Assembly: GCA_964187785.1 (NCBI GenBank)
Contig: OZ076409.1
Span: 9,240,001-9,304,000, forward strand
Origin: Amphiscolops sp. MND2022
Lineage: Eukaryota
DNA length: 64,000 bases
Direction of reading: 5' to 3'
The notes beneath the pieces are model-generated. The model did not search any database, was not told the origin of the DNA, and saw nothing but the letters and a program-made list of their open reading frames with translations. Positions 11,953-38,377 of the stretch are shown in pieces. Position 1 is the stretch's first letter. Every line of letters starts with the position of its first letter. Position numbers and translations under genes: made by a program.

Positions 11953-11961
11953 TATTCTTTG

Positions 11962-13979: not shown

Positions 13980-14343
13980 GAACGTTTTACTGACGACAGT
14001 AAAAGTAAAAACTCAAAAGGTTTATTTCCAGATATTGAGATATCAACTGAAACTGAAATCATTTACATGAATGGCTTTACTGCACACGAGTTTTCACAAG
14101 TTCCATGTGTAAGAGTTTTGTAAGGCTTTATTATCGAACAAAGTCCGAACCAGACTGTTATGTGAGAGGACAAACTTTGTTGTTAATCATATTGATTTTA
14201 GAGATCTCTGATGTTCTGAAAGAACTGCCAATCATTAGTTGTCACCTGCTTGTGTTGTTTGTCAACAACAGAATGTCAGTTACAAGACACAGTTGTCACG
14301 TTTCTGAGATTACCTAAAGCTCTTCAATCTTTTACTGGGAGTT

Positions 14344-14737
14344 TGAGCTGTTAAAAAGTTGTAGTGTTGTTTTTTTAGATGTTTTATTACAGACATAAGA
14401 AGTCTAAGATTTTAACAGCGAAGTCGTCTTATTTCAAGTCCGTTTAGCTAGCTAGTTCTAGGTCTAATCTTTCTGAGTAAGACCGTTTGGTGGATTAGAG
14501 TCTAATTTTCTCCGAGTAGATATATTCTATCAACTAGGGTAGATTTCATTCATTTACATTAATTAGAAAGTGACAGTAACAGGATGAATCTGAGGAGCTT
14601 GTTACAGGATAAATTAAGTGAAGTTTCTTCTAAGATAATTAGCTTTCAAATGGAATTACATCTATTAATTACTAGAGGTGAGAGTTCAGATATTTCTGAA
14701 TTATGGAATCTTTGAGGACATGCAACGTGGCATCACA
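14344..14737 (-). mobile_element. Solo LTR of a relative of the giant env-carrying Gypsy
   Basis: tgagctgttaaaaag...gcatcaca is colinear with 18404-18801 and 39051-39448. Perfect 4-bp TSD agtt/agtt. Confidence 0.92.
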
Positions 14738-16100
14738 AGTTACTCTTTCATGTATCGCTGTATTGAAATCTCCCAGTATTTGAACATCCTACGGATCTTT
14801 TATCATCTGAAGTTTTTGCGATATTTGCTAGTTCATTTCTTCAGTCGCAATTCCTATAGTTTCCATCATTCTTTCACTGTTTCGTTTTTGTATTTTGTAT
14901 TTCCCATCGATCTAGATTCTTTTCTATTAGAGTTACTCTCTTTATTACGTAAAATGGACAAAAAGTTCGTATCTGTTCCGCTTTTTAAATATTTTTCTCT
15001 GGATTCGTTTCTATTATAATTTCGTAGTATCATATGCATGTTTTTCGGAAATGACATTATGTTCTACTTAATGGGGAGAGTTCTATTTCGCTCTCTGGTG
15101 TTTTGTCTCCTCGTTGATCCCGGTAGAATACAAGACGCCCGCTAAGCACCGGGATATTTTCCGCCCTTTTCGCCTTCACCGACTAAGCCATAGCTATTTT
15201 GGGAGGGGGGAATCGGATCTAAAGAATAAGATCTAAAATTTAGTGATTTTAGATCTTATTCCCGTCCTGAAATTTCAGATCTTATTGCCCTTAGAATTTG
15301 TTCCCTTTTTAACTTTAGATATTATTCCCCTTCTAAGCTAGCTTCTAGCTTCTAAGCTAGCTTCTCCCCTTCTTAGCGATAGAGGAGACAGTCAAGTGGA
15401 GTTTTGGCATAATTTGAAAAAAAAACGCATCACAGATCATGATTTTCCTCCCCCATTTATAAAATGTGGGGTCGGAAAATAATAATTTCTCAAGACTAGA
15501 TTAAGGAATAATAAACAGACTATCCGCAACAGTCTTAGCCACATGAGGGCTATTATATGATACTATATGAAGCATCACGTCAACAGAAATACAAACAGAG
15601 AATACTATGAAGAACTAAGGGTTCTCGTTTTGAAGATTGATAGTTAACAAAATTGTCTTAACAGATACAAATCGTATCAGCAATAATTGATTGTTGTCAG
15701 TAGAAGAATGATCGAAATTTGTAATTGTAATTGCATTTGAGAGTACTGGAGTTTGGGCTTATACTAGTTTTTGTTAACATGACCAGCTAAACATATATTG
15801 TTAAGTTTCTGGATATAACCTCAGTACCCGGAATCCTGGGTACGTCAAACTTACGTTGGTCTAAAAATAGTAATCCGATCACCGCACCCATGACGTCGCG
15901 TTCATATAGGTCAACATTAAAGGGCACATAACTCATACAAGTTAGTATTTGGACCTGTTTAGATACTAAATTTATATGCTGAGTACATTTTTACATGTGA
16001 TCTTTAAGGTACTGTGAACATAACCATTTTTTGGCAGAGTACTACGTAAATGCATGCAGCAAGTAATCATATCAGGTGGCCGTACAACACAGCGTACAAG

Positions 16101-17988: not shown

Positions 17989-20312
17989 TGTAACGTCGGG
18001 TAGTCGATGTTACAAAATTTCGATCAAAAATTCGAAATGTGCAGTATCAAATAATCACATTCAAGATGGCCGACCCGGTAGGTACGGAAACCGTAGAAGA
18101 AGCGGAAAAACGTTAAAAAAGATAAACCCCAACCAGCCCGAGAGAGAACACCCTACCATAGGAGTATCCCCGAAATAGCTGAAAGAAGTTTTCATATTTT
18201 CATATTCACTCAGAAGTTTGCATATTTTGCATGTGCCACCTAGCAGGTCAAAGACTAGCTGACACTGACACAGACTTTGAGAGCGCCGGCACGCCGCCAC
18301 GGAGCTCTAACTGAGGAGCCTCCTTTGACGTTTGAAAAAGTCCCATTTAGGAGACCATTTCGGGATTAAAAAATAATGTCTAGGAGTGTAGTAAGGCAAC
18401 GGTTGAGCTGTTAAAAAGAGTTGTGGTGTTTAGTTTTAGATCTTTTAAGAATGACATAAAAAGTATAGACTTTTAACAGCATAGTCGTCTTAATTTTAAT
18501 CTGTTAGCTAACTGGGTCTAAGTCCAAATTATCTGAGATCTCAGTTCTTGAAGTACTAGAGAAAAGACCGATCGTTAGGATGAATTCTCAATTTCTCCGA
18601 GTAGATATATTCTTATAACTAAGGTGGGTTTCATCAATTAATAATGTGACAGCAACAGGATGAATCGAAGAAGCTTGTTACAGGATATATTAAATGAAGT
18701 TTCTTCTAAAATAATTAGCTTTCAGATAAGATTACATTTCTGAAGAGTTCAGACAATTTTTGAATTATAGAATCTTTCAGGACATGCATCATAGCATCAC
18801 AATCAACCGGGAATTTTTGAAAAACAAAAATTATATATATGCACTTTGGGTTTGAGGAGTTCTAAAAGTTTTTGTCTCAAATGTTCAAGTTTCGGTTTCA
18901 GATATTATATGCATGGGTTTATTTCATATGTGTTATGCATGAGTTTCGTTCTGAAATGTACCATACTCAAGGAGTGAGAACAACCTAAGACGATTTTACT
19001 TCTTACATCATTGACGATTCATTTGGTGCAGAGGTTTAAGTTTCTTTCAGTTTCTTTGACTGACAGTTACATTCAAGTTATTGTTCACAACTATTTACTA
19101 TAACTACGTACTTTTTCATGTTTGTTTTTTCGTATCAGCCATCGGCTTGTTTGAAAAATTTTCGTCAACATGAATTAGTCAGCATGAAAATCTCTTTCAA
19201 GTTAAAGATTGAAAGCGTGATATATCATTGAGTTGTGAATCAAATTTGGCGGGTGTGTGAACCAAAAGTGAAAAAGTTTTGAAAAGTCAAGGTTGAGGTG
19301 AGAGTTCATTTTCAACAAAAGTGACGAGGAGAGCAGGAGCAAAGAATTTGTTGAAGCAAAAAGCTTTGACAACTACAAGTTTCAAACTTTAAAAGTTGAA
19401 GGTAATAGATGTGAAAGGTGCTAAAGAAAATTTTTGAAAAATTTTTTGGGAGAGATTTTGGGAAGGTAAAACAAAAGTGGAGAACATGTTTTGTAAAAGA
19501 ATAATTTTTGTCAAAAATCTTAGGAAATTTCTTGTACCATAGGTATGACTTGTGTTCTGTAAAAAATGGGGGTAAAAATATATTTTGTAAGTGTATCATA
19601 GATGTAACCAATAGAGTTAGATAAGAGTATGTCAATGTACTATGCACAAAACAATAATATTGCGGTTAGAGGGTAATAATGGACGCAAATTTTGAGAGGT
19701 TACAAAGATTAGATTAGCAACTAATATGAGCAATTATAAGATTAAATAAGAGTATGTATTATTGGGATTGAAAGGGGAAGATTATACACGATATTTGAGT
19801 TACAATTTGGTTAAAATTGATTACAATAAGTTATACGTTAAATAAGATTGACTGTATTTTTACAATTGAGAATAGAATTGATTATATTAAGTTACAGATT
19901 GGTCAAATTAGAGTTACAGTTTAGTTTTAAAATTGACGAAGTTCAAATCACATTGTTTGAAATTTGGAGAAGAATTCAGTTCATCAAAGTGAGAAGACCA
20001 GTCAAGAAGTCGTCAATGTAGTGGCTGCCGCGAAGAAGACCAGTGAAGAGGCAGGTGGAGAAAGTAGAAAGACCAGTGTCCAGGAAGACCAGTGACGACG
20101 ACATGAAGGTTGGCGACGTCGAAGAACCCAGAGTGACGATGGATGATGTTGACCATCTGGCGGGTGTGCGTGAAGCAGTAAAGAGTGTCAGTGTTTGAAG
20201 GAGAAGTTCTTTTGTAGGAGTGATCGACAGCTACATTTCAAACACCATTGAAGAAAGTTGATGGAGTCAAGAAGAGATGTAGTTGAAGAGTGAGAAAATG
20301 TAAGTAGAATGT

Positions 20313-20765
20313 TTAATTGTACAGAGGATGTTGTTGAGGTGGATGGGCCTGATGTTGATGAGGGTCATAAAGTTCGAGTATTTGTGTATATCCAAAACTA
20401 TGGAGCATTTCATTGAATGCATCAGTGGCTTCTTGTAGAGCAGCATGAAAATATTGGTCTTTTGAAGTGAATGCGGAGTTTAACACAAAAACGACATTAG
20501 AAGCCGTTTCACAAATGGCAATTTTTGGTCCAGCAACGTGAAGCCTTGAATATTGTTGAAATGTGATGTGTTTCTTTTTAATTTGTGCGACATTATATAG
20601 GACTTTCAGAAAGGCAATAAAAGATTTTGGCGTTATTTTGTTGTTGTTTATTTCCAGAGAGAGTTTATAAGCCATTGTATGAAAAATAGCTGCTTTGAGG
20701 CTATGGGCTTTTGAGTGACTGGAAGTCATGTTTATAATGTCTTCTACTTCAGCGTTGGGGGCCAT
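20313..20765 (-). CDS. Unknown 150-aa accessory ORF of the giant Gypsy
   Basis: Intact ATG-to-stop frame with good context (gccATGG), protein-like composition, same strand as gag-pol-env. Confidence 0.55.
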   Translation of the reverse strand: MAPNAEVEDIINMTSSHSKAHSLKAAIFHTMAYKLSLEINNNKITPKSFIAFLKVLYNVAQIKKKHITFQQYSRLHVAGPKIAICETASNVVFVLNSAFTSKDQYFHAALQEATDAFNEMLHSFGYTQILELYDPHQHQAHPPQQHPLYN

Positions 20766-20858
20766 GGCGATGAAGTCCTGTAGAAGAAGAAGATGTGGAG
20801 ATGTTCTGAAAGAGTATGGAAGGAGAAGGAAGAAGAATGGATGTTTCTGTACAAGAGT

Positions 20859-22200
20859 TTAATGAAGATTAGTGGAGTTAAAAAGAGTAATTATAGTTTC
20901 CAAAGCAGATTGAATTGCTTGGGATGATTGAGTGATTCGTTGAGAGTCTAGATCGAGTGTTTGTAGGAGTTTGTGTGTTCCTTCATAGCAGTGTAGTGTA
21001 TGTGTGAGTGTTGTGATAGGTGTTTCAGAAGAATTTCGTTTATATGGTTCAAGTAAATTGGTCATGTCTCGAAGTGTTCGATTGTTTAATACGGAAGAAA
21101 GTTTGTCTGGAGTGTTTTTGATAGCTGAAGAGTGTGATTTATGTTCAATTTTTTACTCAGTTTGTACCATAAAGGAAATAGTTTTCGCAGAAATGAAGAG
21201 AAGTTCAATATAGGAGTACGTTTGTTTGTAGAGAGCGGTATTATAGGTTCTGTCTTTATCGTCAAGTGGAGAAGATACTAGATGTTTAGTAACAGTGAGA
21301 GGTTTTACAATTTGAGTAGGAAAGTTGCAAGGCAACAAAAAGTCATCGTAATGTATGAGATATTCTTGAGGTACAATAAGTGGGCGTGAAGTATTATTGT
21401 ACGGAAGTAGACAGAAGTATTGTTTTAAAGGGTCATAGTTTCTAAGATAGCCTGTTATACAAGAGTGGTCAAGAGTGTACATCTTGTTATTGTGAACGGT
21501 GATGTATATTTGTAATTTACGAAATTGTGATTTTGTGGTTTCGTGTACTGTAGAAACTTAGTGTACGTTTGATGATGAGTAGCTTTTTGTGAAATAGAAA
21601 GGAAAGATGGATCTGATTCATCTGTTTTGAGATCGTAGATAGATGGGCGAAGAAAATTGAATTGTAGAGAGAAAATTTTGACTCCATTGTCATGCCAATA
21701 TTGGTATGGACCCATTATCTTGGAAGCAATTCAAGTGAAAAAGTCTTGGTTTTGTCATATAAGCGAAATGAATAGTCTGTACGGTGCATATAGAGAGAAG
21801 TTAATTGTGCTTTAAAGACGAAATCTTCATGAGAGAGAAGTGGAATCAAATGATCGTCACGATTCGTGCAAAGCGAAATGTTTGAAGGTATTGAAGGAGG
21901 GTAGATTGGTGAAGAAAGAAAGACAGGATCTTTCATTATTTCGTGTCTCTTTTTTGGAGGAGGTGGTGTTGCTTGTGTATGATCAGTATCATCAGGCGGA
22001 TTATCAGTTTTCGGATTTTCGTGTTCAAACTTTGTATGTTCCATTGGTTCAAATAATTTTGGAGGTGTTTGTTCACAAATGTCTATATAGAGAACATGAG
22101 ACTAATTTAGGAGAGGTCTGGTTGTGAGATCTGTGTTTGGTTGTTCAAGCTGTTTTTGTAGATCAATTTGTGCTTGTGTCAATTTGTGAAGAAAAACATC
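20859..22200 (-). pseudogene. Unknown accessory ORF downstream of env, fragmented
   Basis: Abutting fragments 21715-22044, 21455-21715, 21153-21482 and 20859-21065 are joined by frameshifts or stops. Contains an NLS-like PPPPKKR. Confidence 0.55.
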
Positions 22201-22497
22201 AACAATCACAGTGTTATCTATTCCAAGAGGCCTAAGCACTTTAAAGTTAAAGTATTATAAAGTTAACTAACGAGTGGATTTATCAACTTTAAATGAAGAG
22301 GTTTTGAGGACTGTTATGATGAGAGATGTGTTGTTTGATGGAGGAAGATGAATTTCTACAAGAGTTTCAAGAGATGGAGGAGTAGCAATTGTGAATAGAT
22401 GAAAGAGTAGACGAGTGTTCTGGAAGAGAGATTGCCAAAGACTGAAAAGTGTTCAAGAAGATGGAGGTGGGAAAGGATAGTTTACCCGTGAATAAAT

Positions 22498-25050
22498 TTA
22501 TATTGGTGTATCCGTAGTAGAGGTGATAGAATTGTTAATCAAAGTGTCATGTTGAGTAGTTGAAGTGTCATTCGAATGAAAGTTTTTATGAGAATAAATA
22601 GGAAGTGGAGGATGTTGGACAGGAGAGAAAGGAAGTGCAGTAGTTTTTTGATGGGAATTGTGGTGTCTTTTGGGAAACAAGTTAAATTTAGGAAATTGAA
22701 GTTTGTTAGGACGTTTAGTATAGAACGGTGGAGGGGAAGTAACGTCAGGAGGACGAATAATTAAATTTGTGGAAGTGTCAATGAAATTATCTAAGGATTT
22801 GGTTTTTAAAAGTGTACTTTTGGGTTTTTTGTTTTGAGTCTCATTGAGGTCATTGATCATTCGTGCTGTAAGAACATTAAAAAACCATCTGCTATAGAGC
22901 TAAATAGAGTAGTATTGTTTTTAAGATTATATTTAATAAAAATTGTTTTGTATAGTTTGATAATAAGTGTAATAGTTGCTTGTACAAAAAGAAATGTAGA
23001 GAAATATATTCCACATTGAGTGAGAATGTAACAAGGATATCCGAAAAGTGCAATAAAAGCGTCAGCAAACCATGTAGGTGTACAAAGAGGACTTCGGTTT
23101 AACAATCTATCATGAAGTCCAATACGTAATGTGTTATATGGATTATCGTGGGGTGAATTTGCATCATAATCAGGAGTATCAGATGAAATGAAAGAATAAC
23201 TAAGAGCTTTGCCAAGTGATTGGAGTGTAGAATCAGAATGTTTAGAAAATAGGATTTTGTTCCAAAATTGGTCAAGTTCAGCATTTGAATAAATACCAGC
23301 ATCTTGAGCTGTGAAGGTGTTGAGCCGTATAGTTGTTTTAATTTGCGAAGGTGTAAACATCAATGGAGGTTTGCGTTTAATAGGTTCAGGTCCAAGAATG
23401 TAAAAATTTTGATCATCAGAATCAGGGTCAAGTTCAATAATATTTCTTGGATTATTATCACACGTAATTGGAGTAGCATAGTCATAAGTTTGTCTAGTAA
23501 TTGGGTCAACGTACATAAGAGTATCTTTGAAATGGATAGGTATACGGTCAAAGCAACGATCAGCTTTGTATAAAGGAGAAAGAAAATGAGGACAGTCATA
23601 AAGCCAGGCAGTGGAGCCTTCGACGTATAGAAAGTTACTACGATTTCCTGTTAAAAGGAAACCAGCAAGTTGAGGGTTTTGTACTGACATTGCGAGTATT
23701 GTAAGGAGTTGATTTCTTTCTAATTCACAAATTGTATGAAGAGTATTAAGTTCTTGTACAGTCATAGAACGAAAAACATGATTAATAGTATAATCAATTT
23801 TGGTGTTTATATATGCATGGTAGTCAATAGTAGCGAAGTTGTTTGAAACATTTAATGCAGGGAATACGAATTTGTTGTTTGAATTGTCTAATACAATTTT
23901 GCCAGAAATATGTTCATCGATCATAGAATGAGGATTAGGTTGTCCTGTATGCATGTTAAATCCATCAGTGTATGTAACAAAAAGATCAGAATATTGTGTA
24001 GAATAAAGTGGATCTGGTTTGCCACAAAATGTTTGTGCTGTAGGGTATACTTCAAAGCGTGAAAGACTTGGGTTATTAGGATAGTGTGTATGAGGAGCGG
24101 AAACATATGGATGTTCCGTACCTTTATTACCTGAGGAGGTTTTCGGTTTTACGGAATGTGGAGAATGTACAAAAGAATCAGTTTCAATCCAATAGCGATC
24201 TTCAATTTTGGTCATACGTCCAAGGAAATCTTGTAATGTAAAGATTAAACAAAAGTCGTCATTGAACCAAACAAGATTAAAAGGAGTTTTAGTTGTCGGT
24301 TTACAGAAGCCATCTGCAAAATAGCAGGGTAATGTATGTCCATCAATGATCATAACATTTGCTGTATCATCATAAGTAAGTTCGACTTCGGAAATTTCTA
24401 AGCGCCAACTTACTTCAAATTGGTGATGAGCAGGACAATTGTGATAAGGGTTTTAAGTTGGGTCATATATCCAATTTTTGTCTGCAGGCATAAAAGTAAA
24501 AGTGCCTGTGTACATTTTGTTCAATTGATATACAGTGAAAGGAGTTTGGTAGCGTTCCAAACGTTGTTGAAAATAGTGGTCTTCTAAGAGTGTAAAAGTT
24601 TTATTGTTTTGTAGATTGTTTAATATTTTGTTGTTAGTACCATTAAGGTGTCTAATAATGTTTTTACATTATAAAGGATCAAGAGTTACTCGAAGTGGTA
24701 AAGTATTGTGGTTCCATACTGTTCTGTCAACACGGCTGTACTTAATCGATCCTTGAAAGCAATTTTTCCTTTCTTTTTTTAGCATAAGCAACACATTTAA
24801 AAGCTTTAATGCGTTTAGTTTTTGCTCTGACATAAACGCGGGCTTTAACACTTGCATGTTTGATATCAGAAGGAGCTTCAGTGCATTGTTTGACATTAAG
24901 TAGATTGAACTGTCTTAAATTTTGTTGTTTTGCCTAATCGTAATGAGAAACCATAAGGTTTGTAAAGTTTGGGCGTCTGAAGCAAGATAATTGTCTGTAT
25001 CAGAAGGTGTAATGGGTATTGAAATGGTTAAATTATAGAATTGTATTTGG
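22498..25050 (-). pseudogene. env: Envelope-like glycoprotein (herpes gB / chuvirus G-like class III fusogen), disrupted
   Basis: N-part MVSHYD*..QQNLRQFNLLNVKQC..RIKAFKC..NC. Core 22857-24353 has CELERNQLLTILAMSVQNPQLAGFLL...LYDC...CFDRIPIHFKDTLMYVDPITR...ITC. C-terminal TM YILTQCGIYFSTFLFVQATITLII and a cytoplasmic tail. N-glycosylation sequons present. Family call made from remembered motif pattern. Confidence 0.75.
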
Positions 25051-25086
25051 AGTATGAGTTTCGTTATATAGAGTGTTGTATAGAGT

Positions 25087-26330
25087 CTAGAAAGAAGAAG
25101 TATATTTAAGTCCAGAATATGGGTTACAAAAGATAATTTTGCCATAGGTAATAGTGGTTTGTGTTAAATCTTGTTCAAATTCAATATGTACTACTTCGAA
25201 TGGAGCAGGAGAGGTTTTGTGTTCTATTTTTGAAACGTGAAATATAGGATGAGGATTTAATCCTTGAAATTTAACTTTGACTTCAAAATTAGGTTCTAAA
25301 TTAGGAGACTGAAGTCGTTTAAGTTCTGTTTCCTTTCTTTTGTGAGATAGGAGATCGTTATTAGTAATAAAGCGTTCTGCAAGAATTGGAAATCGAGAGT
25401 CGTTTTGTGGATTGTAGATGGGTATTCCATCAACGCGAAGTGGATAGTCAACAAAATTGGGAGTTGGAGGTCTAGAATGATCAGCCGTATAATATTCAGG
25501 AAGTCTAATATGTGCAGGAACAGGAGTAGGTATTATAATTTCTGAGAAGAGGATTCCAGATAGAAATGCAGTTTGTGCATCAGCTGATAGTAGTGAAGCT
25601 GTGTCAAAACCAGAAGTAAAATAAGGAGAAGGTATAAGTTCTGAAGAGTGTGTTTCAGAGGACATTGGTTGTGCGTGTTGTCGTACAAGTCTTAATGCAG
25701 AATTGCTAGAAAGAACGGATAAATTAAGAGTTGAAGTGTCTGTGCTAAGTCTACGTGAAGGAAGGTCTCGAAGATTATATCTATTTTGTGGAATAAAGAG
25801 TGAACTTGTAGTTTCTTGTGACGGAGTTTATTCAGAGGTATTGTCCAAAAGGTTCGAGAGTGATGTAGGTTTTCTGAGGGGTTTTAGTGGAGGAAAAGTT
25901 TAGAATTAGTAGTACTAAGTTCTGATGGTAAATTGAGTGGGGGTAGGGAACTATATTCAGTATCAGGGATGTGTACAAGACTGAGTTGAGGTTGAAGTCT
26001 AACAGTTTTGATTCCTGTAGGGTGTTTGTAATTTACGTATTGTTCAACAGTTTCAGGGTTTGGTATATGTACTAAAGGAGTATTAATGGGAGATGGTTGA
26101 GTACGAGTGGTAATAGGAATTTCAGATATTGGAGTTCTATGAAGGATAGATGAGGAAGATGTTTCGGAAACGTAAGATCTTGGTCTTTTTGACGGAGTGG
26201 TAGGTGTTACATTACGAGAGTTTGTAGTGTTAGATACTAAAGATTCAGGAGTAGAAGAAATACTCGGTGCTGATAGAGATATATCAGAGGAAGAATCCAG
26301 GATTTTTTAATTGGGGTTCAACAGGTTATC
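25087..26330 (-). pseudogene. Unknown ORF between integrase and env (Ser/Thr/Pro-rich N-part plus ~190-aa globular part)
   Basis: Near-continuous frame LDSSSDISLSAPSISSTPES...RYNLRDLPSRR...MSSETH...KYTSSF with few lesions. Same A/C-rich coding-strand bias as pol. Confidence 0.55.
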
Positions 26331-26407: not shown

Positions 26408-28231
26408 TTAAGAGTATAGTTGTGAAGGTGGTATAAAGAATCTATAATCTAAATTGGGTTGATGTCGTAGTTTATAAGTAGTTTTGGTAGTTCTGTCAAT
26501 TAGAGGAGGAAGTGAATTTGTTTGGTTTTGAGAAGAGTGTCGTGATCTGTCAGTTGGGATATTAGTGTGAGGGGTGTTAATTACGTTCTTGTACCCTGTG
26601 TTGTCATTGTCATTGGTGGGAGGAGTTAAAGAATTGTGATTGGATGGGATAAATGGTGTACTATTTTGAGAAGAATTCTGATTGGATGTATTAAATGGTG
26701 TTACTGTAGGCCATTTGTCCAATGAGAGTAAGCTGTTCTAGGGGAATGACGAATTCCTATAAGTGTACAAAGGTGTGCCATTTCTTTGTTAACATATTCT
26801 GATCCACGATCAGTGACAAGGTATCTAGGTGGTCCAAATTTAATGATCCAGTGGTGTAAAAGAGTTTTGATTGCAGTTTTGGCGTTATTCGATTTAATAG
26901 GTACTGTAACAACAAAGTGACTGAAAGCGTCGATGATGACATGTATATAAGATTTATTGTGTAAAGGAGGATTGATAGGTCCTTTAGTGTCCATTGAAAT
27001 GCGATAATTAAAGGAAGTAGCATGTTCTGAAAATGCTTGTGTAGGAGCAATTTGATTTTTTTGATTGAAGTGTTTATTGCGTTGACATTCAATACAGTCA
27101 TGGATGAAAATAGAAAGCCATTTTTGTAGTAAAATTGAGAGAATGTATTATATGTAATTTTGATACCAGTATGAGAGTGTTCATGAAGTTTGTTAAATAC
27201 TGTCTTGAATAGTCAAAAAGGGCGGCATATTCTAATTGTTGCTTGTACAAAATCTGGAGTAGGGGATCTGTTTAAACCAATAGGACTTGTAATATAGAGG
27301 CTAATAAGGTTTGTAGAATCATCTATGAAAAGTTGTGCGAATCTTTTGTAGTATGCATGTAAGAAAGGAGTGCCAGTAATGCGTGGTGTTACAGAATGAG
27401 GTTTATTGTTATGAATAATCCAAGAATAAACAGGTCTGAAAACCGGGTCTTGGGATTGTTGTTGTTGAAGTGTTGTTATGTCTAATGAGTCATCTGGAAG
27501 AAAGAAACCTTGAAAATAGTTTTAGTATTTGAAAAATGATGGATCCTAGAAAGGTATAATTTGTGAACAATGGGTAAGAGATGGTGAGTCTGTTTGTACA
27601 TTTATTGCAGAGACACATGTTTGTGAAGTGTTAGATGGCGTCTTGTTTATGGTAGAGTAGGTTTTTGGTTGTAATGTTGTGTCAGATAAAAAGGAGGAGT
27701 CAGATTTTGGAATTATTGTGTATATATGATCTTCATCATCACTTGTGATATCAGTATCATTGAGTCAGAGAGATTGTTGATAAAGAGTTCTATTGTTCTT
27801 TTTTATAGGTGTTTTGAATTTTGTTTGAAAAGAAGTTACAGATTTAAATGAGAAAGATTGTAAAGGTTTGACAACAATGTCATTTCTTTTGTCGTTAATA
27901 CGAATGGAAAATTGGTCGGTACCATAATCAGCAAGAATTGGGTGAGAGTCGTGTTTTTGATGAGGTAGTATTTCTTCATGTTTAATTAAGTAATGTACAG
28001 GTTTGAGCGTGTCGTTTTGTAATATTGCAAAATTGATTTGAGGTGGTACTTGTTTGTGTTTTATTTGATTCAGTTGTAATTCAGCTTTTGTAAAGGAGCA
28101 ACTTAGCATGTCAGCAGCAGAAAAGTTTTTTCCAGGAGTATGTATAATTTTGAGTTTTGAGAATTTTGTTAATTGCATTTGAGCTCTGTAGAAATGAGGA
28201 CTGAGGTTACCTTTCTTTGTAAAACGAAGTA
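26408..28231 (-). pseudogene. pol: Second, more diverged RNaseH(C-part)-integrase copy with internal deletion
   Basis: Repeats 28435-29969 (FTKKGNL...ADMLS, MDTKGP, VTDRGSEY, WTNGL), then jumps to the C-terminal YKLR-containing tail. Confidence 0.85.
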
Positions 28232-31200
28232 TCACGAGTAAGATTTAAATCAAAGGTAAGAGTATTCTAGGTCTTGTGTGAAAAACAATTTCATGTGGTG
28301 AAACATTGAGTTCTGAAAGGGGTTGAGAATTGTGTGCATAAGCATACATATGGACTTGGAAGGCCCAATCTTTAGGTGTATCATGGAGAAACATTCTAAG
28401 ATGTGTACCGAGATTTCTGTTTTGTACTTCTACAAGGCCATTTGTCCAAGGGGAGTAAGCATTTCGAGGAGATTGACGGATTCCCATAAGTGTACAGAGG
28501 TGAGCCTTTTCTTTGTTAACGTATTCTGATCCACGATCAGTAACAGGGTATATGGGTGGTCCAAATTTAATAATCCAATGATGTAAAAGTGTTTTGATTG
28601 CAGTTTTGGCGTTATTTAATTTTATGGCCACTGTAACAACAAAATAACTAAAAGCGTCTATGATGACGTGTATATAAGATTTATTGTGTGAAGGAGGATT
28701 GATAGGTCCTTTGGTGTCCATAGAGATGCGATAATTAAAAGGAGCATGTTCTGAGAATGATTGTATAGGAGCAGTTTGAATATTTTGGTTAAAGTGTTTG
28801 TTGCGTTGACTTTTTATGCAGTCATGTATGAAAATGGAGAGCCATTTTTCAAGGAATGGAATATAGTAGTATTGAGAAAACGTATTATACGTAATTTTAA
28901 TACCAGTATGAGAATGTTCGTGAAGTTTGTTGAATACAGTTTTGAAGAGTCGGAAAGGAAGGCAAATACGAATGGTGGGATGTATCAGATTTGAAATAGA
29001 AGATTTGTTTGTAATATTAGGATTTGTAATATAGAGACAAATAAGTTTTGTAGAGTCATCAAAAAAAAGTTGTGAGGATCGTTTATAATATGCGTGTAAG
29101 AAGGGAGTACCAATGATAATTGGTGTTGAAAAGAGTCGGGTTTGTCGTTATGAATGATCCAAGAATAAACAGTTCTAAGAACTGGGTCTTGGGACTGTTG
29201 TTGTTGAAGTGTTTTTATGTCTAATGAATAGTCGTCAGGTAGAAAAATCCTTGAAAGTAATTTTTGTATTTGAAAAAGGAGGTGTCATAGAAAGGGGCAA
29301 TTTGTGGACAGTGTGTAAGAGATGGAGAGTTGGTTTGTACATTTATCGCAGAAGCAGTTTCTTGTGGAGTAGTAGATGGTAATTGCTGAAGTGTAGAATA
29401 ATTTTCTTGTAGAGTTGTATCGGTGGAAAAGGAAGAGTCATATTTTGGAATTCTAGTGTATATATGATCTTCATCATCACTTGTTATATCTGTGTCATTG
29501 AGTAAAAGAGATTGTTGATGAAGGCTTTTGTTGTTCTTTCTAATAGGTGTTTTGAATTTTGTTTGAAAAGGAGTTATAGATATAAATGAAAAGGATTGTA
29601 AGGGTTTGACAACAATGTCGTTCCCTTTATCGTTAATACGAATAGAAAATTGGTCTGTACCATAATCAGCAAGAATTGGGCGAGAGTCGTGCTTTTGATG
29701 AGGTAATGTTTCTTCGTCTTTAATTAGGTATTGTACGGGTTTGAGGGTGTTATTTTGAAGTATTGCGAAATCAATTTGTGGTGGAAGTTGTTTGTGTTTT
29801 AATTGATTTATCTGTTATTCAGTTTTTGTAAATGAACGACTGAGCATGTCAGCAACAGAAAGATTTTTTCCAGGTGTGTGAATAATCTTTACTTTTGAAA
29901 ATTTTGTTAGTTGCATTTGAGCGCGATAGAAGCGGGGGCAAAGGTTACCTTTCTTTGTAAAACAAAGTAAAAGTGAATTGTGATCAGTGAAAATATGTAT
30001 CGGATGAGGAGAACCAATAATAAGAAATTCATAGATTTGAAGAGCATGTACTATACCAAGGAGTTTTCGATCAAGTGTTGAAAATTTTGGTTCTTGTGGG
30101 TTTAATATACGCGAATTGTACGATATAACTTTCATTTTGTTTTGTTCATTTAATTGGAAAAGAACAGCGCCTAGTCCATTAAACGAAGCATCAACAGTAA
30201 TAAAAAAAGGGTTTTTCGTATTGGGTATTGTAGGTTCTGTTTCAGAAGTAAGAGACGTTTTTAATTTTTGAAAGAGCTGTTCGTGTTCATCTGTCCATTT
30301 CCGTGGAGTGTTCTCATGTAAAAGATCGTAGAATGGTTTGAGATTAATATGTAGTTTTTCAATATATTTTGTGTAAAAGTTGAGTGCGCCGATGAAACTC
30401 ATTAGGGCAACTTTGCCTGTAGGAGAAGGAATTTTGTGAATAGCTTCAATCTTTGAGTGTATTGGTTTAATTGTATTGTAACCAATTTCATGTCCAAGAA
30501 ACATTACTTTGAGAAGCATAAAAAAGGATTTTTCAGGGGCTAGTTTAAGATTGTTTTTTGTACTTATAATGTGTAATTGTTCTATAAGTTGAAACATGTG
30601 TTCTTTAGAGTCAGATAAAAGTAGAATATCATCTATGTAAACGAGAGCAAAACCTTGTTCTATAAGAGTTTTAAAGAAAGAAGACATTTGTTTTGTAAAG
30701 AAATTTGGAAGTCCTTTGAGACCATAAAAGCCTCGGATGAAAGCGAAGAGTTTGTCACCAGATAAAAAACGGTAAGTTAAATAGTGTCTTCGTCAAGAGG
30801 TGCATGTGCATAGGCGTACATAAGGTCAATTGCAGATTTGTACTTTTTATTAGCTCGTGCTAATTGTGGAGCTAGAGGTTCAGTAGGCCAAGATTCATCA
30901 GATTCCTCTGTATTTGAATTAAGATGCCGAGCATCCAATACACACTTTATTGTGTCTTCCTTGGGAACTATAATAAAAGGGTATAAATATGTTGTGCCAT
31001 AAACTGGTTTGTCTTGTGGAGAGGAGCCAATTTGTTTAATAATATTGTGTTTTTCTAGTTTTTTGAGAAGATTATTGAGCTTCTCTCTGTAATGAATTGG
31101 AACTTTAGAAGGACGTTGTGTAAGAAGTTGTGCGTTAGGTTTGAGTCTAATACGAAAAGGGGTTGATATTTTACCAACGTCATTTTCTTGGGTTGCATAG

Positions 31201-33584
31201 TATGTTTTATATTTAAGTAACATGTTACAAAGGGTAATATATTCTGTGTCTGTAAGGTCAGAAAAGTGGAAGTTGAATTTAATAATGAATTTTAAATTAT
31301 CAGAAGTGTACGGTAAGGAAGGATAAATACGTTTTTCAGTAGTATTGGAAGTAGGTTGGACGTTATACAGAGGTGAAGTCTTATGTGGAATGTCAGAATG
31401 TGTCATCTAAATTTGGTGTAGTGAAAATTGAGGAGGAGGAGTTGTGGAATCATCATAATGTACAACATAGTTGGTGGGTGGAACTGGTTCTGTTATGTCA
31501 GGATGATAAGTATGAGTAACATTGTGGATTAAAGTGTTGATATCATTTACCTGATAAAATTTGGGTTTTTCATTCGTAATCGGTACTTCGATGTATCCAA
31601 TATTTCCTGTGGGGAGTGTTGCAATATGTTTAGAGGTGTTCTGAATAATAGTTTTACAAATGTCGGGTTTTTTATCTGTAAATATTTCAATAAAATTGAA
31701 ATTGGTTCGAGATTTGGTGGCAAAATAGGTATGTGGTACTGTAGGAAAGAAATGGTTTTGTGGGGTAGTTGTAAAATGAAGGTTGTAATAATTTTTAATT
31801 AGGAAATGTGCAATTTTAGAGGTTTTAGGTTTTAAGCGTAATTGAGTTTTGGAATTGATCCGGTAGATGTACGAAAAGTATGGGTAGTCTTTTGAGAGGA
31901 GTGTTGTGAATTTTGTGTAATTAGGATGTATTTTTGAATGGTATTTAAATTCTAATGTATATTCTTGTATGTTGATATTTTGTATATTGTCTTCAAAGAA
32001 GGGTGTACCAAGGATATTGTATTTGATGTCAGCTACTGCAAAAGGTACTGAGAAGGAACGGGAATTGTCATCAATTGTTGTATTTAAAATGATATTTGCA
32101 TAATGTATTATAGGAACTTCAGTTTGATTTGCAACAGTTAGTGTTTTTGAAGTGTTCTGTGTTTTAAGATCAGAGGGATGATTTGGTCTGATGTCTAAGA
32201 GTTTTGTAAGAGTAATATAAGTTGGATAGTTTAAAACAGACATTGAAGCACCACTGTCTAAAAGAAAGGCGATTTCGAGTCTGGAAGGGTTATCTCTTTG
32301 TACTATACTTGATGGTGTATGAACATATAACGTATAAAACCAACTGATAGGTGTGACAGCATTTGCCATTGCGGTTAGATGATACATGTGTACTTCAAAA
32401 TTTATTGGTTCAGAGGGGTCTTGTGATTGTACCATGTTGAGTTTGTTTCTAGAGTTGGAATGTGAGCGTGATCTAGAAAATCTAGAATCTCTTGGTCTGG
32501 AAGGTGGTCTGTAAGAATTTGTGTATTTTGAAATGTTGTGTTCTCTTGAATAAGAGCGTGATCTATATCTCGGGCGAGAGTTATTTCTAAAAGGAGATCT
32601 ATATGAAGATCTATATGGGGAGCCGTAAGATCGTGAATCGCGTTTGAAGGTATCATATCGTGATCTAGAGTACTGTGGAGGAGTAGTATTTTTATCATAA
32701 CTAAACCTATCTCTAGATGTAGAACGGTATCGGTTTTGTGAAGGGTCTTTATTATAGGAATTGTTGCGTGAAGTACTTCGACTTCTGTATCGAGTATCAT
32801 AACGTTTTGTTCTGTCATTAGAAGGGGAGCGAAAGTACTGTACAAATGATTTTTGTGGAGATTTTGAGCGAGCATAAGCATCTCGTTTGTCTTCACCATC
32901 TCGTAGTTTTTTGAAGCAAGCAGATATAGAGTGATTTATTCTGTGACAGTAAGAACAATATTTTTTATATGCGGTTTTAGTTTTGTTATTTGGGTCTTTA
33001 GATTGAGTAAACATAAGTTGTTCTTGAGATTGAGGTTCAAGAGTTTGAGTGTTTAACTGTTTTGTAATACTCTTAATTTCAAGTGCAAGATTTTGGGTTC
33101 TAATTTTATCATTTGCGATATCTCCAGCGTCAACAAGTTTTACTAGTGTATGAAACGGAATATAAGGTTCTAAAACAGTAGAAGTGTGTTTAAATTGTCT
33201 AATATTTGCAAAGTCTTTAAGGTTTTTGGGAAGTCCTTCTGTAAAAATTTCATTACATTTGAGGTTTTTAGTAGATGCATTTTCATTACACCAGCCTTTT
33301 TCAACTAGCTGTTGAACTTTGAGTGCAAAGTGTCGTACTGTTTCATTGTCCTTTTTAGATAAATTAAAGGCTTTAACTTGAGCATAATAAGCGTTCTTTT
33401 GAGAAGAGAATTGTTTTTTGAAAGCTTGTACAAAAGCGTGCCAATCTTGATTATAGGTATCATTAAGGCGTATGTACCAACTGAGAGCTGTACCTGTTAA
33501 GGAACATTGTATAAGAGCCATTCGACGAGCGTGCCAAAATTTATATTCATGTTCTGAAGTAGGTTGTAATTTTAGTGAGAATGT
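28232..33584 (-). pseudogene. pol: Duplicated gag(C-part)-PR-RT-RNaseH-integrase with stops and frameshifts
   Basis: LLDSGAS (PR), VYIDDILL (RT), ITVDAS and IFTDH (RNase H), MDTKGP, VTDRGSEY and NGLVEVQN (integrase D,D,E). Confidence 0.92.
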
Positions 33585-36500
33585 TATAAGAGTTTTAAAG
33601 AAAGAAGTCATTTGTCTTGTAAAGAAATTTGGAAGTCCTGTGAGACCATAAAAGCCTCGGATGAAACCGAAGAGTTTGCCACCAGATGAAAAACTGGTAA
33701 GTTTAATAGTGTCTTCGTCAAGAAGTGCACGTGCATAGGCGTACATAAGGTCAATTGTATATTTGTACTTTTTATTAGCTCGTGCTAATTGTGGAGCGAG
33801 AGGTTCAATAGGCCAAGATTCATCAGATTGCTCTGTATTCGAATTGAGATGTCGAGCATCCAATACACACTTTATTGTGTCTTCCTTGGGAATTATAATA
33901 AAAGGGTTTAAATATGTTGTGCCATAAACTGGTTTGTCTTGTGGAGAGGAGCCTATTTGTTCAATAGTATTGTGTTCATCTAGTTCTTTGAGAAGATTAT
34001 TGAGCTTGTCTCTGTAATGAATTGGAACTTTATAAGGACGTTGTGTAAGAAGTTGTGCGTTAGGTTTGAGTCTAATACGAAAAAGGGATGATATTTTACC
34101 GACGTCATTTTTATGAGTTGCATAATATGTTTTATATTTAAGTACCATGTTACAAAAGGTAATATATTCTGTGTCTGTAAGGTCAGAAAATAGGAAGTTG
34201 AGTTTAATAATGAATTTTAAATTATCAGAAGTTTACGGTAAGGAAGGAAAAATACGTTATTCAGTAGTAATGAAAGTAGGTTGGACGTTATACAGAGGTG
34301 AAGTCTTATGTGGAATGTCAGAATGTGTCATATAAATTTGGTGTAGTGAAAATTGAGGAGGAGGAGTTGTGGAATCATCATAATGTACAACATAGTTGGT
34401 GGGTGGAACTGGTTCTGTTATGTCAGGATGATAAGTATGAATAACATTGTGGATTAAAGAGTTGATATCATTTACCTGATAAAATTTGGGTTTTTCATTC
34501 GTAATCGGTACTTCGATGTATTCAATATTTCCTGGGGGGAGTGTTGCAATATGTTTAGAGGTATTCTGAATAATAGTTTTACAAATGTCGGGTTTTTTAT
34601 CTGTAAATATTTCAATAAAATTGAAATTGGTTCGAGATTTGGTGGCAAAATAGGTATGTGGTACTGTAGGAAAGAAATGGTTTTGTGGGGTAGTTGTAAA
34701 ATGATAGTTGTAATAATTTTTAATTGGAAAATGTGCAATTTTAGAGGATTTAGGTTTTAAGCGTAATTGAGTTTTGGAATTGATCCGGTAGATGTACGAA
34801 AAGTATGGGTAGTCTTTTGAGAGGAGTGTTTTGAATTTTGTGTAATTAGGATGTATTTTTGAATGGTATTTAAATTCTAATGTAAAGTCTTGTATGTTGA
34901 TATTTTGTATATTGACTTCAAAGAAGGGTGTACCAAGGATATTGTATTTGATGTCAGCTACTGCAAAAGATACTGAGAAGGAACGGGAATTGTCATCAAT
35001 TGTTGTATTTAAAATGATATTTGCATAATGTATAATAGGAACTTCAGTTTGATTTGCAACAGTTAGTGTTTTTGAAGTGTTCTGTGTTTTAAGGTCCGAG
35101 GGATGATTTGGTCTGATGTCAAAGAGTTTTGTAAGAGTAATATTTGTTGGATAGTTTAAAACAGAGGTTGAAGCACCACTGTCTAAAAGGAAACCGATTT
35201 CGAGTCTGGAAGGGTTATCTCTTTGTACTATATTTGATGGTGTATGAACATATAACGTATAAAACCAACTGGTAGGAGTGACAGCATTTGCCATTGTGGT
35301 CGGATGATACATGTGTACTTCAAAATTTATTGGTTCAGTGGGGTCTTGTGATTGTACCATGTTGAGTTTGTTTCTAGAGTTGGAATGTGAGCGTGATCTA
35401 AAAAATCTAGAATCTCTTGGTCTGGAAGGTGGTCTGTAAGAATTTGTGTATTTTGAAAAGTTGTGTTCTCTTGAATAAGAGCGTGGTCTATATCTCGGGC
35501 GAGAGTTATTTCTGTAAGGAGATCTATATGAAGATCTATATGGGGAGCGGTAAGATCGTGAATCGCGTTTGTGAGTGTCTTTTCATGATCTAGAGTATTG
35601 TGGAGGAGTAGTATTTTTATCATAACTAAATCTATCTCTAGATGTAGAACGGTATCGGTTTTGTGAAGAGTCTTTATTATAAGAATTGTTGCGTGAAGTA
35701 CTTCGACTTCTGTATCGAGTATCATAACGTTTTGTTCTGTCATTAGAAGAGGAGCGAAAGTACTGTACAAATGGTTTTTGCGGAGATTTTGAGCGAGCAT
35801 AAGCATCTCGTTTGTCTTCATCATCTCGTTGTTTTTTGAAGCAAGCAGATATAGAGTGATTTGTTCTGTGACAGTAAGAACAATATTTTTTATGCGGGTT
35901 TAGTTTTGTTATCTGGGTCTTTAGATTGAGTAAACATAAGTTGTTCTTGAGATTGAGGTTCAAGAGTTTGAGTGTTTAATTGTTTTGTAATTTTGTTAAT
36001 TTCAAGTGCAAGATCTTGGGTTGTAATTTTATCATTTGCAATATCTTCAGCGTCAACAAGTTTTACTAGTGTATGAAACGGAATAGAAGGTTCTAAAACA
36101 GTAGAAGTGTGTTTTACTTGTCTTTTATTTGCAAAGTCTTTATGGTTTTTGGGAAGTCTTTTTGTAAAAGTTTCATTACATTTGAGGTTTATAGTAGATG
36201 CATTTTCATTACACCAGCATTTTTCAACTAGCTGTTGAACTTTGAGTGCAAAGTGTCGTACTGTTTCATTGTCCTTTTTAGATAAATTAAAGGCTTCAAC
36301 TTGAGCATAATAAGCGTTTTTTGAGAAGAGAATTGTTTTTTGAAAGCTTGTACAAAGGAGTGGCAATCTTGTTTATAGGTGTCATTAAGGCGTATGTACC
36401 AACTGAGAGCTGTACGTGTTAAGGAACATTGTATAAAAGCCATTCGACGAGCGTGCCAAATTTTATATTCATGTCCTGAAGTAGGTTGTAAACCTAGTGA

Positions 36501-38377
36501 GAATGTAACACGTGCCTCAATATGTTGGAGATATTCTTCAGGTGTATAATTGTGATCTAAGCCATCAAAAGGTTTAATAGGTTCAGATTTTGAAGTAGAA
36601 GAGTTGATATACGTTGGTTGTGGAATAGTATTTTGCGTGATTGTAGATGGTTGTACTGTATTGTATGTAGGAATATTTGAGAGATTTGTAAAGGAAGTGG
36701 CTGATGTGTTGTGAAAGTAAGGATTAGTTCTAATAGTTGTTGAAGGAGGATTTGGTATTTGAAATTGTGAGCTTTGTAACATAGAAGAAAGTGGGTTAGA
36801 AGGTTGTTTAGGAGCAGAAGTATTATTCAGTGAATTAATTGTATTATTATGTGTTAGAGGTTGTTGTATAGGATTTGAGTTTGTACTTGAAAGATTGTAA
36901 GATAAAGGATTAGTTAAAATGGGTTGTAAAGGAGGTCTAGAGAGCTTTCTAGCTGTTGTATAATTGGAAGATGGATTTGAGTGGATATTGTTAATATTTA
37001 AGCCGGTTTGGACATTTTGTATTTGAGTATTTGAGCTGGGGTGTACGTTGAAGTTTGTATTTGAGGAGGCGAAGGTGGAGTTGGTGTTTGAAAATGAACT
37101 GTATGTGTATTTTGAGTATTAGAGGAACCTGGTTGTGGCGAATTATGAGTATTTTTTGAAGTTGCGAATTGAGATGGAATAGAAGGTGGATCATAGTTTT
37201 GACGAGGAGATGCGAGTGTTTGGGATTGTTGTGCATTAGATTGAGATGTAGATAAAACAGAGGAGTTATCCTGAGTTATGTTTGAAATTGTGTCTGGGTT
37301 TTGATTATTATTTTCTTCTGGTGTGATATTATGGGTAGGAATTTGTAAAAGATTTGAGTCATTAGTTATGATAAAGCTTTGCGTGTTTTGCACAGTTTGT
37401 TCAATTTGTTCAGTCACAACAGAGAGTTCTGAAGTATTTTGTGTGTAAGGATGATATTTTTAAAGAATCTGTATTGAAAATTTTATTTGTTCGATATCCT
37501 GTTGTAGCCAGTAATGAGGATTATCATGTCTTTGAATTTTTGTGTCAAGATCTGAGACATCAAAATAGTCAGATTTGTGTCTCAAATCTTCTAAGTGAGA
37601 AGGAAGATAGGAGGGTGTGTCTTGATTTTCATTGAATTCAATGAGTTTTTGCATATAAGTGATGAAAACATCTCTTTGATAGAAAGAGTAATATTTTGTG
37701 GATGAATTGTTCTATAATATGTTCCAGTATTTATTCCTTTGACTGGGTTAAAAATGATTTGAAAAGGACTTTGTGATGGCGTTATTTCAAGTGTTTTATA
37801 TCGAATGTAATATAGATAAGAGTCACAATGTTCTCTTACTAATGGAATAGTGTGTATTGTATGTGGTTCTTTTTCAAATGGAAGTGGGTTGGTGTACTGA
37901 AAAATAAAATTGTTCAAAAAAGGTGTTACATCTTGTGTACGAGATCGATTCTGTCTTTTGTCTGTAGATAGAGTAAATGGAGTAGGAAGCATTATATATT
38001 GTACCATTTAATTAGTATAATAAGATTGCCATAAAAGATAGATTTATTGGAAATTTTGTATTTAGTTCAGAGTTATATGGTACTAGTAGGTCGATGAATG
38101 CAACTTGTAAAAAAAAACTGTAAGTGAAGTACAAAGGAAAAGGAGGAATGGGTTTTGTATATATAGTATTAGAGTGTGAAAGGTGTAATAAATGCTAAGT
38201 AGTCCAAAAAGAGGTAATACTAAAGTTGTTAACCTAAATTGGGATAGTTATACATTAGAATGTTGGTATAAAATGTACTAAAAATCTGTCAAGAAAAAGT
38301 GCAATACCGGCAACGAATGCAACAAAGAACCAAAAACAAACAATTAATTAAACAACAATGTCTACTGAAGACGGCAT
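33585..38377 (-). pseudogene. gag-pol: gag-protease-RT(N-part), first copy, frameshifted, with long N-terminal Gag extension
   Basis: PIKPFDGLDHNYTPEEYL capsid start, YCSYCHRTNHSISAC zinc knuckle, RS-rich tail, protease FLLDSGAS, RT motifs CVLDARHLN and FYGLTGLP. Confidence 0.88.

What the first reader, a model, noticed from the sequence alone, without database searches (positions are those of the whole stretch)
20313..22200. Accessory ORFs between env and the 3' LTR of the giant Gypsy
Seen: one fragmented ~450-codon frame (NLS-like PPPPKKR, helical C-terminus) and one intact 150-aa ORF with a strong start context, both on the sense strand. I recognise no family. Inference: an accessory-gene organisation like that of complex retroviruses (possible transactivator, export factor or silencing suppressor), which is unusual for Gypsy elements.
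Basis: partly seen in the sequence, partly recalled or inferred. Interest (0 to 1): 0.7.

Follow-up and report, generated by a model that had tools for sequence, protein, structure and literature searches.

The report
Orphan accessory genes in enveloped retrotransposon
A high-copy, envelope-bearing jumping gene of an animal carries two extra protein genes after its envelope gene, and probably a third before it; they match no known family and give it the layout of a complex retrovirus, but what they do is still untested.

Summary
Observation confirmed. On the minus strand of a Ty3/gypsy element with a chuvirus/gB-type env lie ORF-A (about 22239-20859, broken here) and ORF-B (20765-20313, intact, 150 aa). 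ORF-A is intact (about 440-470 aa) in many other copies, in clusters of 1036, 502 and 161 members. It also has full-length relatives whose 265-residue core is 38-48% identical while the N-terminus is 13-22% identical, which is strong protein-level evidence of purifying selection. ORF-B has 606 relatives; its evidence of selection is moderate, and it sits just behind two of the element's most pyrimidine-rich splice-acceptor candidates. A probable third accessory gene (ORF-X, 422 aa in other copies) lies between pol and env. The layout gag-pol-X-env-A-B parallels fish foamy-like retroviruses, but the RT is Ty3-like. No family, solved structure or confident fold was found. DNA of other copies and RNA data were not available, so codon dN/dS and expression are untested. 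Most likely role, inferred: self-regulators made from subgenomic RNA (CERV/Rev/Tas-like), about 0.4. Extra ORFs in gypsy elements are known; these protein families appear undescribed.

The parts
39051..39448 (-). 5' LTR (TG...CA, 398 bp), 96% identical to the 3' LTR; 4-bp target-site duplication ACCG on both flanks
39038..39048 (-). PBS-like stretch starting with TGG, two bases after the 5' LTR; priming tRNA not identified
   Evidence: sequence read directly
26408..38007 (-). gag-protease-RT-RNase H-integrase, broken, with two internal tandem duplications (30661-33584 / 33585-36506, 95%; 26708-28231 / 28435-29969, 82%)
   Evidence: best PDB match of RT and of IN is Ty3
25087..26306 (-). ORF-X: probable third accessory gene between pol and env, broken here; 422-423 aa in 6 of 15 listed members of an 18-member cluster; S/T/P-rich first 300 aa; no family match
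22453..25145 (-). env, chuvirus/gB-type fusion glycoprotein (PF24664, E 2.7e-23), broken here; 22899-22453 is its cytoplasmic tail
20859..22239 (-). ORF-A: about 450-aa accessory gene, broken in this copy (two frameshifts, two stops). Low-complexity N-terminus, basic patch, conserved 265-aa core, helical C-terminus with heptad pattern
20778..20830 (-). Pyrimidine tract with two candidate 3' splice sites (AG ending at 20806 and at 20778), 41 and 13 nt before the ORF-B ATG
   Evidence: compatible translated footprints in 8 of 8 N-extended relatives examined
20313..20765 (-). ORF-B: intact 150-aa accessory gene, predicted mainly helical, no membrane segment
19994..20093 (-). Four exact copies of a 9-nt motif in the 3' untranslated region; candidate cis-acting sites, function unknown
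18404..18801 (-). 3' LTR; no purine tract in the 40 nt upstream of it in this copy

Best explanation
Shown or strongly supported: ORF-A and ORF-B are protein-coding accessory genes of an env-bearing Ty3/gypsy family (my odds: ORF-A 0.97, ORF-B 0.85). This window holds a decayed copy in which only ORF-B is still open. Inferred: they lie more than 16 kb behind the 5' LTR, after three other genes, so they need subgenomic mRNAs. ORF-B is probably made from a fully spliced RNA that uses the strong acceptor just before its ATG. Because that splice would remove gag, pol and env, the element needs a way to make and export unspliced RNA. The most likely job is therefore self-regulation in trans: ORF-A as a nuclear, self-associating regulator (flexible Pro/Ser/Thr-rich N-terminus, basic patch, conserved core, C-terminal coiled coil) and ORF-B as a small early co-regulator. 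Together they would promote transcription or export of the element's own full-length RNA, working like CERV/Rev or foamy-virus Tas, possibly through the 4x motif in the 3' UTR. The confidence value below is for this functional reading.
For: Intact frames in other copies: 99 of the 120 listed ORF-B relatives are 148-151 aa; ORF-A members of 440 aa or more make up 8 of 15, 11 of 15 and 14 of 15 listed in three clusters. Deep conservation of ORF-A: core 100-126 of 265 identical versus N-terminus 10-17 of 79 in 11 divergent rows. Substitutions shared between ORF-A copies are more conservative than singletons (mean BLOSUM62 +0.32, n=166, versus -0.42, n=701; p 9e-8). ORF-B: 12 of 34 differences between P0001 and P0096 need two or more base changes, against about 2 expected under uniform neutral change (p about 3e-6). 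Linkage to env in a second ORF-A lineage: natural chimera P0405. A-then-B order in other copies: P0030 and P0046. Acceptors: 20806 ties for first and 20778 is in the top 6 of 234 YAG sites in the element. Basic triplet before an invariant Tyr in 10 of 14 rows. Heptad pattern over residues 419-454. No membrane segment in either protein. Precedent: CERV is a 517-aa nuclear, spliced, predicted-multimeric export factor of a Ty3/gypsy element (PMC10309623).
Against: No direct evidence of expression, localisation, or RNA or DNA binding. No sequence similarity to any regulator in Pfam or the PDB. The basic patch misses the classical consensus and is absent from 4 of 14 rows (the P0249 lineage and P0406), and the rows are not independent. 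No NES-like match falls at a shared position across lineages. ORF-A has no strong acceptor (best 15 of 20) and the leader has no donor better than 7 of 9. The 3' UTR motif region is not unusually structured (z -0.55) and matches no Rfam family. For ORF-B the BLOSUM test is weak (+0.09 versus -0.33, p 0.03), and an open frame at that divergence has a 17-19% chance under neutral substitution. For ORF-A the multi-base-change test was not significant (p 0.90) and site dispersion was p 0.08. The protein database holds only called ORFs, which inflates apparent intactness. ORF-B was not found outside a 73-93% identity group, because only the best 120 of 606 relatives were listed.
Confidence: 0.4

Rival explanations
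1. Counter-defence genes: ORF-A and/or ORF-B suppress host silencing or restriction (piRNA or chromatin silencing, deaminase-type restriction), working like Bet/Vif or transposon anti-silencing proteins (these comparisons are recalled).
For: Very high copy number: ORF-A clusters of 1036 and 502 members. A possibly nuclear ORF-A. Retention across deep lineages.
Against: No match to any nuclease, ligase-adaptor or reader domain. The strong conservation of the core fits a fixed partner better than an arms race (inference).
Confidence: 0.25
2. Particle-associated proteins: ORF-A, ORF-B and ORF-X act in assembly, budding, env recruitment or nuclear entry of the pre-integration complex.
For: Flanking of env on both sides. 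ORF-X relatives carry PSAP (late-domain motif, recalled), TPSKRPR and RYNLR. The foamy-virus Gag nucleosome-binding site uses Y537, L539 and R540, a Y-x-L-R spacing (PMC9040877 passages). ORF-A has a coiled-coil pattern.
Against: These motifs are 4-7 residues long and lie in ORF-X, not in ORF-A or ORF-B (YxLR search). Neither ORF-A nor ORF-B has a membrane segment.
Confidence: 0.2
3. Co-captured viral genes: ORF-A and ORF-B came in with the chuvirus-like glycoprotein, for example as a nucleoprotein or a small accessory gene of the donor negative-strand RNA virus, and were repurposed.
For: env matches Monjiviricetes_fusion. Chuvirus genomes carry a nucleoprotein gene next to the glycoprotein (10.1101/2020.02.15.950899 passages). 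ORF-A's size is in the range of such nucleoproteins (recalled).
Against: No nucleoprotein family hit for any of 14 ORF-A rows at E up to 10. All relatives whose source was shown are unnamed ENA proteins. gB-type env is reported as an ancient acquisition of these elements (PMC13524379 abstract).
Confidence: 0.08
4. ORF-B, and less likely ORF-A, is a passenger: an open frame kept by recent amplification of a few master copies, with no protein function.
For: Weak BLOSUM signal. A 17-19% chance of staying open at the observed divergence. No distant ORF-B relative seen. Bias of the database towards called ORFs.
Against: Excess of multi-base changes at few sites. Fixed length and start: 102 of 120 begin MAPN. 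Strong start context and top-ranked acceptor. For ORF-A, full-length relatives at about 40% core identity make this very unlikely.
Confidence: 0.07

Closest known systems
Env-bearing Ty3/gypsy elements with HSV/gB-type env ('ancient errantiviruses'; PMC13524379)
   Same: LTR-gag-pol-env-LTR layout, Ty3-like RT and IN, gB/chuvirus-type env, many copies.
   Different: About 1.2 kb coding insert between pol and env and two genes after env. The passages and section read describe no such genes; supplements were not opened.
CERV of Cer1 (C. elegans Ty3/gypsy; PMC10309623)
   Same: Orphan accessory protein of similar size (517 aa) in a Ty3/gypsy element, with helical zipper plus globular domains and a candidate NLS; the best functional model.
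   Different: CERV shares exons with gag and has a Cys loop and a G-protein-like domain. ORF-A lies after env and has no conserved Cys. No direct sequence comparison was possible.
Fish foamy-like endogenous retroviruses, e.g. AciFLERV (PMC5512871), and foamy-virus bel1/bel2
   Same: Accessory genes of unknown family both between pol and env and between env and the 3' LTR.
   Different: Those are Retroviridae. This RT matches Ty3 (E 6.4e-30) far better than foamy virus (E 5.8e-13), and its env is gB/chuvirus-type, so the layout is convergent (inference).
sORF1 and sORF2 of Drosophila MDG1-group elements (10.1101/2025.03.14.642691)
   Same: A pair of accessory ORFs in a Ty3/gypsy element; sORF1 is small, helical and nuclear.
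   Different: They lie upstream of gag in env-less elements, unspliced. sORF2 is a membrane protein; ORF-A and ORF-B have no membrane segment.
Additional ORFs of bdelloid (PMC5408684), planarian Burro (PMC6431247) and plant (PMC7264820) LTR retrotransposons
   Same: Conserved extra ORFs in gypsy-type elements, some nuclear.
   Different: Bdelloid ORF3s replace env and are recognisable enzymes; the plant ORFs in the section read are antisense. Here the genes are sense, additional to env, and unrecognisable.

Membership tests
Ty3/gypsy (Metaviridae) LTR retrotransposon | Paired LTRs (TG...CA), target-site duplication, PBS | tested here: met
   96% identical LTRs, ACCG duplication, TGG-starting PBS-like stretch
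Ty3/gypsy (Metaviridae) LTR retrotransposon | pol order protease-RT-RNase H-integrase with Ty3-like RT | tested here: met
   best PDB match is Ty3; no RT tree was built
Ty3/gypsy (Metaviridae) LTR retrotransposon | Polypurine tract before the 3' LTR | tested here: not met
   none in this decayed copy; other copies could not be read
Errantivirus-like element with gB-type env | env-like fusion glycoprotein after pol | tested here: met
   (PF24664, E 2.7e-23)
Errantivirus-like element with gB-type env | Placement in a named clade of the published POL tree | not tested
   reference sequences and supplements of PMC13524379 were not opened
Spumaretrovirinae / foamy-like retroviruses | RT closest to foamy-virus RT | tested here: not met
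   Ty3 107.8 bits, foamy virus 52.1 bits
Spumaretrovirinae / foamy-like retroviruses | Accessory genes between env and the 3' LTR | tested here: met
   comparison
CERV/Rev-like export factor | Made from a spliced mRNA | tested here: inconclusive
   strong acceptor before ORF-B, weak before ORF-A; no RNA data
CERV/Rev-like export factor | Nuclear localisation and export signals | tested here: inconclusive
   basic patch in 10 of 14 rows; no NES-like match at a shared position
CERV/Rev-like export factor | CERV-type Cys loop and G-like domain | tested here: inconclusive
   no conserved Cys in ORF-A, so no Cys loop; the G-like domain cannot be judged from a low-confidence model
CERV/Rev-like export factor | Binds the element's RNA and is needed for export of unspliced RNA | not testable with these tools
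   needs experiments
sORF2/FAST-like fusogen | Single transmembrane segment followed by a polybasic region | tested here: not met
   maximum 19-residue hydropathy 1.36 (ORF-B) and 1.16 (ORF-A relatives) in 8 proteins
Chuvirus / mononegavirus nucleoprotein | Two-lobed helical RNA-binding fold or profile match | tested here: inconclusive
   no Pfam hit; model too poor for the BFVD search to count

The most novel reading that the evidence does not exclude
An invertebrate Ty3/gypsy lineage has independently evolved a full complex-retrovirus programme. Three dedicated accessory genes are spread around a gB-type env: a spliced early regulator (ORF-B), an old nuclear regulator with a core of undescribed fold acting on a repeated 3' UTR element (ORF-A), and a particle-borne budding and nucleosome-tethering factor (ORF-X). 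Together they switch the element between early and late expression and help explain its amplification to more than a thousand copies.
Probability: 0.2. Interest if true: 0.85.

Novelty: new variant of a known kind. Interest (0 to 1): 0.57.

Why it matters
Complex, multi-accessory-gene organisation is a hallmark of vertebrate lenti-, delta- and foamy viruses. Among animal Ty3/gypsy elements I found a tested function for only CERV and the MDG1 sORFs. A family with two or three conserved orphan genes in addition to env, with hundreds of intact natural copies and lineages down to about 30% core identity, is a tractable case for asking whether retrotransposons evolved Rev/Tas/Bet-like regulation convergently. 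The 265-residue core of ORF-A is also a candidate undescribed domain. Without expression or functional data it remains a well-supported annotation of new genes, not a mechanism.

Full report
The element. The finding lies in a minus-strand LTR element of 21,046 bp. Its LTRs (39448-39051 and 18801-18404) are 96% identical and are flanked by a 4-bp duplication, ACCG. Pfam gives gag, RT, RNase H and integrase, and at 24452-22857 a Monjiviricetes (chuvirus/gB-type) fusion glycoprotein, E 2.7e-23. RT and integrase match Ty3 best among solved structures (RT E 6.4e-30, against 5.8e-13 for foamy virus). Two internal tandem duplications of about 2.9 and 1.7 kb inflate this copy; whether other copies share them is unknown. 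A BEL/Pao element at about 46.9-52.7 kb points to an animal host (established knowledge); the host itself was not determined. All genes except ORF-B are broken in this copy.

The observation. ORF-B runs 20765-20313, 150 aa, in a GCC-ATG-G context. ORF-A is in pieces here: an intact natural relative of 460 aa (P0129) maps to 22239-21739, 21754-21485 and 21482-20862, with two frameshifts and two in-frame stops. The frame at 22899-22498 is the env tail: natural env relatives P0428 and P0430 run through it.

Other copies. ORF-B has 606 relatives among 612 candidates at E <= 0.001. The 120 listed are 73-93% identical, all unnamed ENA proteins; 99 of 120 are 148-151 aa and 102 of 120 start MAPN. ORF-A has 41 relatives among 619 candidates of 407 aa or more, including clusters of 1036, 502 and 161 members. 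In those clusters 8 of 15, 11 of 15 and 14 of 15 listed members are 440 aa or longer. A profile search of the 50%-representative library gave 582 hits at E <= 0.001, of which 150 were listed. One of them, P0249 (447 aa, 39% identical over 344 columns), led to 29 hits among 3516 candidates, with long relatives of 410-602 aa in several deep lineages. The order A then B is kept in other copies: P0030 and P0046 align continuously from ORF-A or its end into ORF-B. The natural chimera P0405 joins an ORF-A of a second lineage (78% to P0244, 47% to P0129) to an env C-terminus 60% identical to the window's, so that lineage is also env-linked. For the other deep lineages the genomic context, and whether they carry ORF-B, is unknown.

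Selection, at protein level only. In 11 divergent rows the ORF-A core (residues 98-362) keeps 100-126 of 265 residues while the N-terminus keeps 10-17 of 79; P0406 keeps 64 of 265 and 7 of 79. Substitutions shared among ORF-A copies are conservative (mean BLOSUM62 +0.32, n=166). Singletons are not (-0.42, n=701; p 9e-8) and look like the neutral expectation of -0.16 to -0.32 computed from ORF-B codons. For ORF-B the same test is weak (+0.09, n=54, versus -0.33, n=263; p 0.03). But 12 of 34 differences between P0001 and P0096 need two or more base changes, against about 2 expected (p about 3e-6), and shared alleles are enriched for such changes (p 0.0003 or 0.04 depending on the threshold). Against: that second test fails for ORF-A (p 0.90); an open ORF-B at this divergence would occur 17-19% of the time by chance; columns are not independent; one chimeric row (P0141) was left in the ORF-A alignment; and the database holds only called ORFs. 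Codon dN/dS could not be run because no DNA of other copies was obtainable.

Anatomy. ORF-A has a low-complexity N-terminus, then a basic triplet before an invariant Tyr in 10 of 14 rows, which does not fit the recalled K-(K/R)-X-(K/R) consensus. Then come a conserved core with invariant K-[YF]-T-S-P, G-x-x-R-x-x-D and R-P motifs and no conserved Cys, and a C-terminal helix pair and long helix with a heptad pattern. ORF-B is predicted mainly helical at low confidence. Neither has a membrane segment. Two candidate splice acceptors lie 41 and 13 nt before the ORF-B ATG, with 18 and 17 pyrimidines in 20; they rank joint first and within the top 6 of 234 YAG sites of the element. Translated footprints compatible with the first acceptor occur in 8 of 8 N-extended relatives examined, though common descent alone would give this. 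ORF-A has no such acceptor, and the best leader donors match 7 of 9. Four copies of a 9-nt motif follow ORF-B at 19994-20093 (5 in the window, 0.84 expected; the motif was picked by eye, so this test is post hoc). The region is not unusually structured.

A third gene. An exact look-up of the 192-aa ORF at 25665-25087 placed it in an 18-member cluster in which 6 of 15 listed members are 422-423 aa. They map to 26264-25090, between the pol stop and env. They match nothing and carry short PSAP, TPSKRPR and RYNLR motifs. The foamy-virus Gag nucleosome-binding site has the same Y-x-L-R spacing (PMC9040877, passages); PSAP as a late domain is recalled. Selection on ORF-X and its distant relatives were not tested.

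How it most likely works. Genes this far downstream need subgenomic RNAs. If the acceptor before ORF-B is used by default, it removes gag, pol and env, and the element then needs a way to make and export unspliced RNA. I therefore favour self-regulation in trans, CERV/Rev- or Tas-like, with ORF-A as a nuclear self-associating regulator and ORF-B as a small early product (0.40). Rivals: counter-defence (0.25), particle or integration roles (0.20), genes co-captured with the chuvirus-like env (0.08), passenger frames (0.07). Only the coding status, order and conservation are shown; every functional step is inferred.

Comparison with what is known. What I saw of each paper: PMC13524379 (abstract, passages, part 1 of 2 of section 5) shows that gB-type env in Ty3/gypsy is widespread. 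The parts read mention no genes after env, its first-round filters capped candidate regions at 10 kb, and its supplements, not opened, may list this family. PMC10309623 (abstract, sections 9 and 15) describes CERV. 10.1101/2025.03.14.642691 (passages) describes sORF1 and sORF2. [quoted passage not shown] PMC5512871 (passages) describes fish foamy-like retroviruses with accessory genes on both sides of env, the closest layout. 10.1101/2020.02.15.950899 (passages) covers chuvirus glycoprotein capture by Pao elements. PMC6451197 (passages) was read on a host guess and is not used. Ten literature searches listed no description of this family, but they work by words and the family has no name to search. 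Earlier scan notes report extra ORFs in other gypsy elements, one also after env; they are unchecked, and they suggest the general pattern is not rare.

Verdict. A real feature: two, probably three, orphan accessory genes in an env-bearing Ty3/gypsy family. The element belongs to Ty3/gypsy, not to the foamy viruses, and resembles them in layout only. Novelty: new variant of a known kind. Interest 0.57; 0.85 if the full complex-retrovirus reading (probability 0.2) holds.

Noticed in passing
window 26306-25087 (-): Probable third accessory gene (ORF-X) between pol and env, 422-423 aa in other copies, with PSAP, TPSKRPR and RYNLR motifs; no family match.
   Followed up: partly
window 18802-18841 (-): No polypurine tract before the 3' LTR; the element has only two purine runs of 11 or more, both internal.
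   Followed up: partly
window 20863 and 20317 (-): The TAA stops of both ORF-A and ORF-B lie inside ATTAAA, a poly(A)-signal variant; may be chance in AT-rich DNA.
   Followed up: no
window 19994-20093 (-): Four exact copies of a 9-nt motif in the 3' UTR; not in a structured region.
   Followed up: partly
window 38676-38856: Short direct repeats in the 5' leader, holding two 7-of-9 donor-like sites (38833, 38786) followed by a 17-of-20 acceptor-like site at 38699.
   Followed up: no
window 30661-36506 and 26708-29969: Two tandem duplications inside gag-pol (95% and 82% identical), so the copy holds two gag-protease blocks and two RNase H-integrase blocks.
   Followed up: no
window 18400-39450: Extreme strand asymmetry: the sense strand has 10% G; GC skew is 0.2-0.5 on the + strand across the internal region.
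   Followed up: no
window 46941-52721 (+): BEL/Pao element with 133-bp terminal repeats (97%) and ORFs of 1307 and 444 aa.
   Followed up: no
window 2536-3310 / 10595-11369 and 11950-13365: A 775-bp direct repeat with 100% identity, 8 kb apart, enclosing a 467-aa ORF (8023-9426) with no Pfam hit; and an array of about 16 units of 89 bp.
   Followed up: no
proteins P0406, P0480-P0485: The most divergent ORF-A relative (about 600 aa, about 30% core identity, long branch), with inserts in the core and a short C-terminus; context unknown.
   Followed up: partly
window 14343-14738 and 60813-63884: A diverged (about 79-81%) partial third copy of the element's LTR, and decayed pol-like frames of another LTR element near the window's end.
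   Followed up: no
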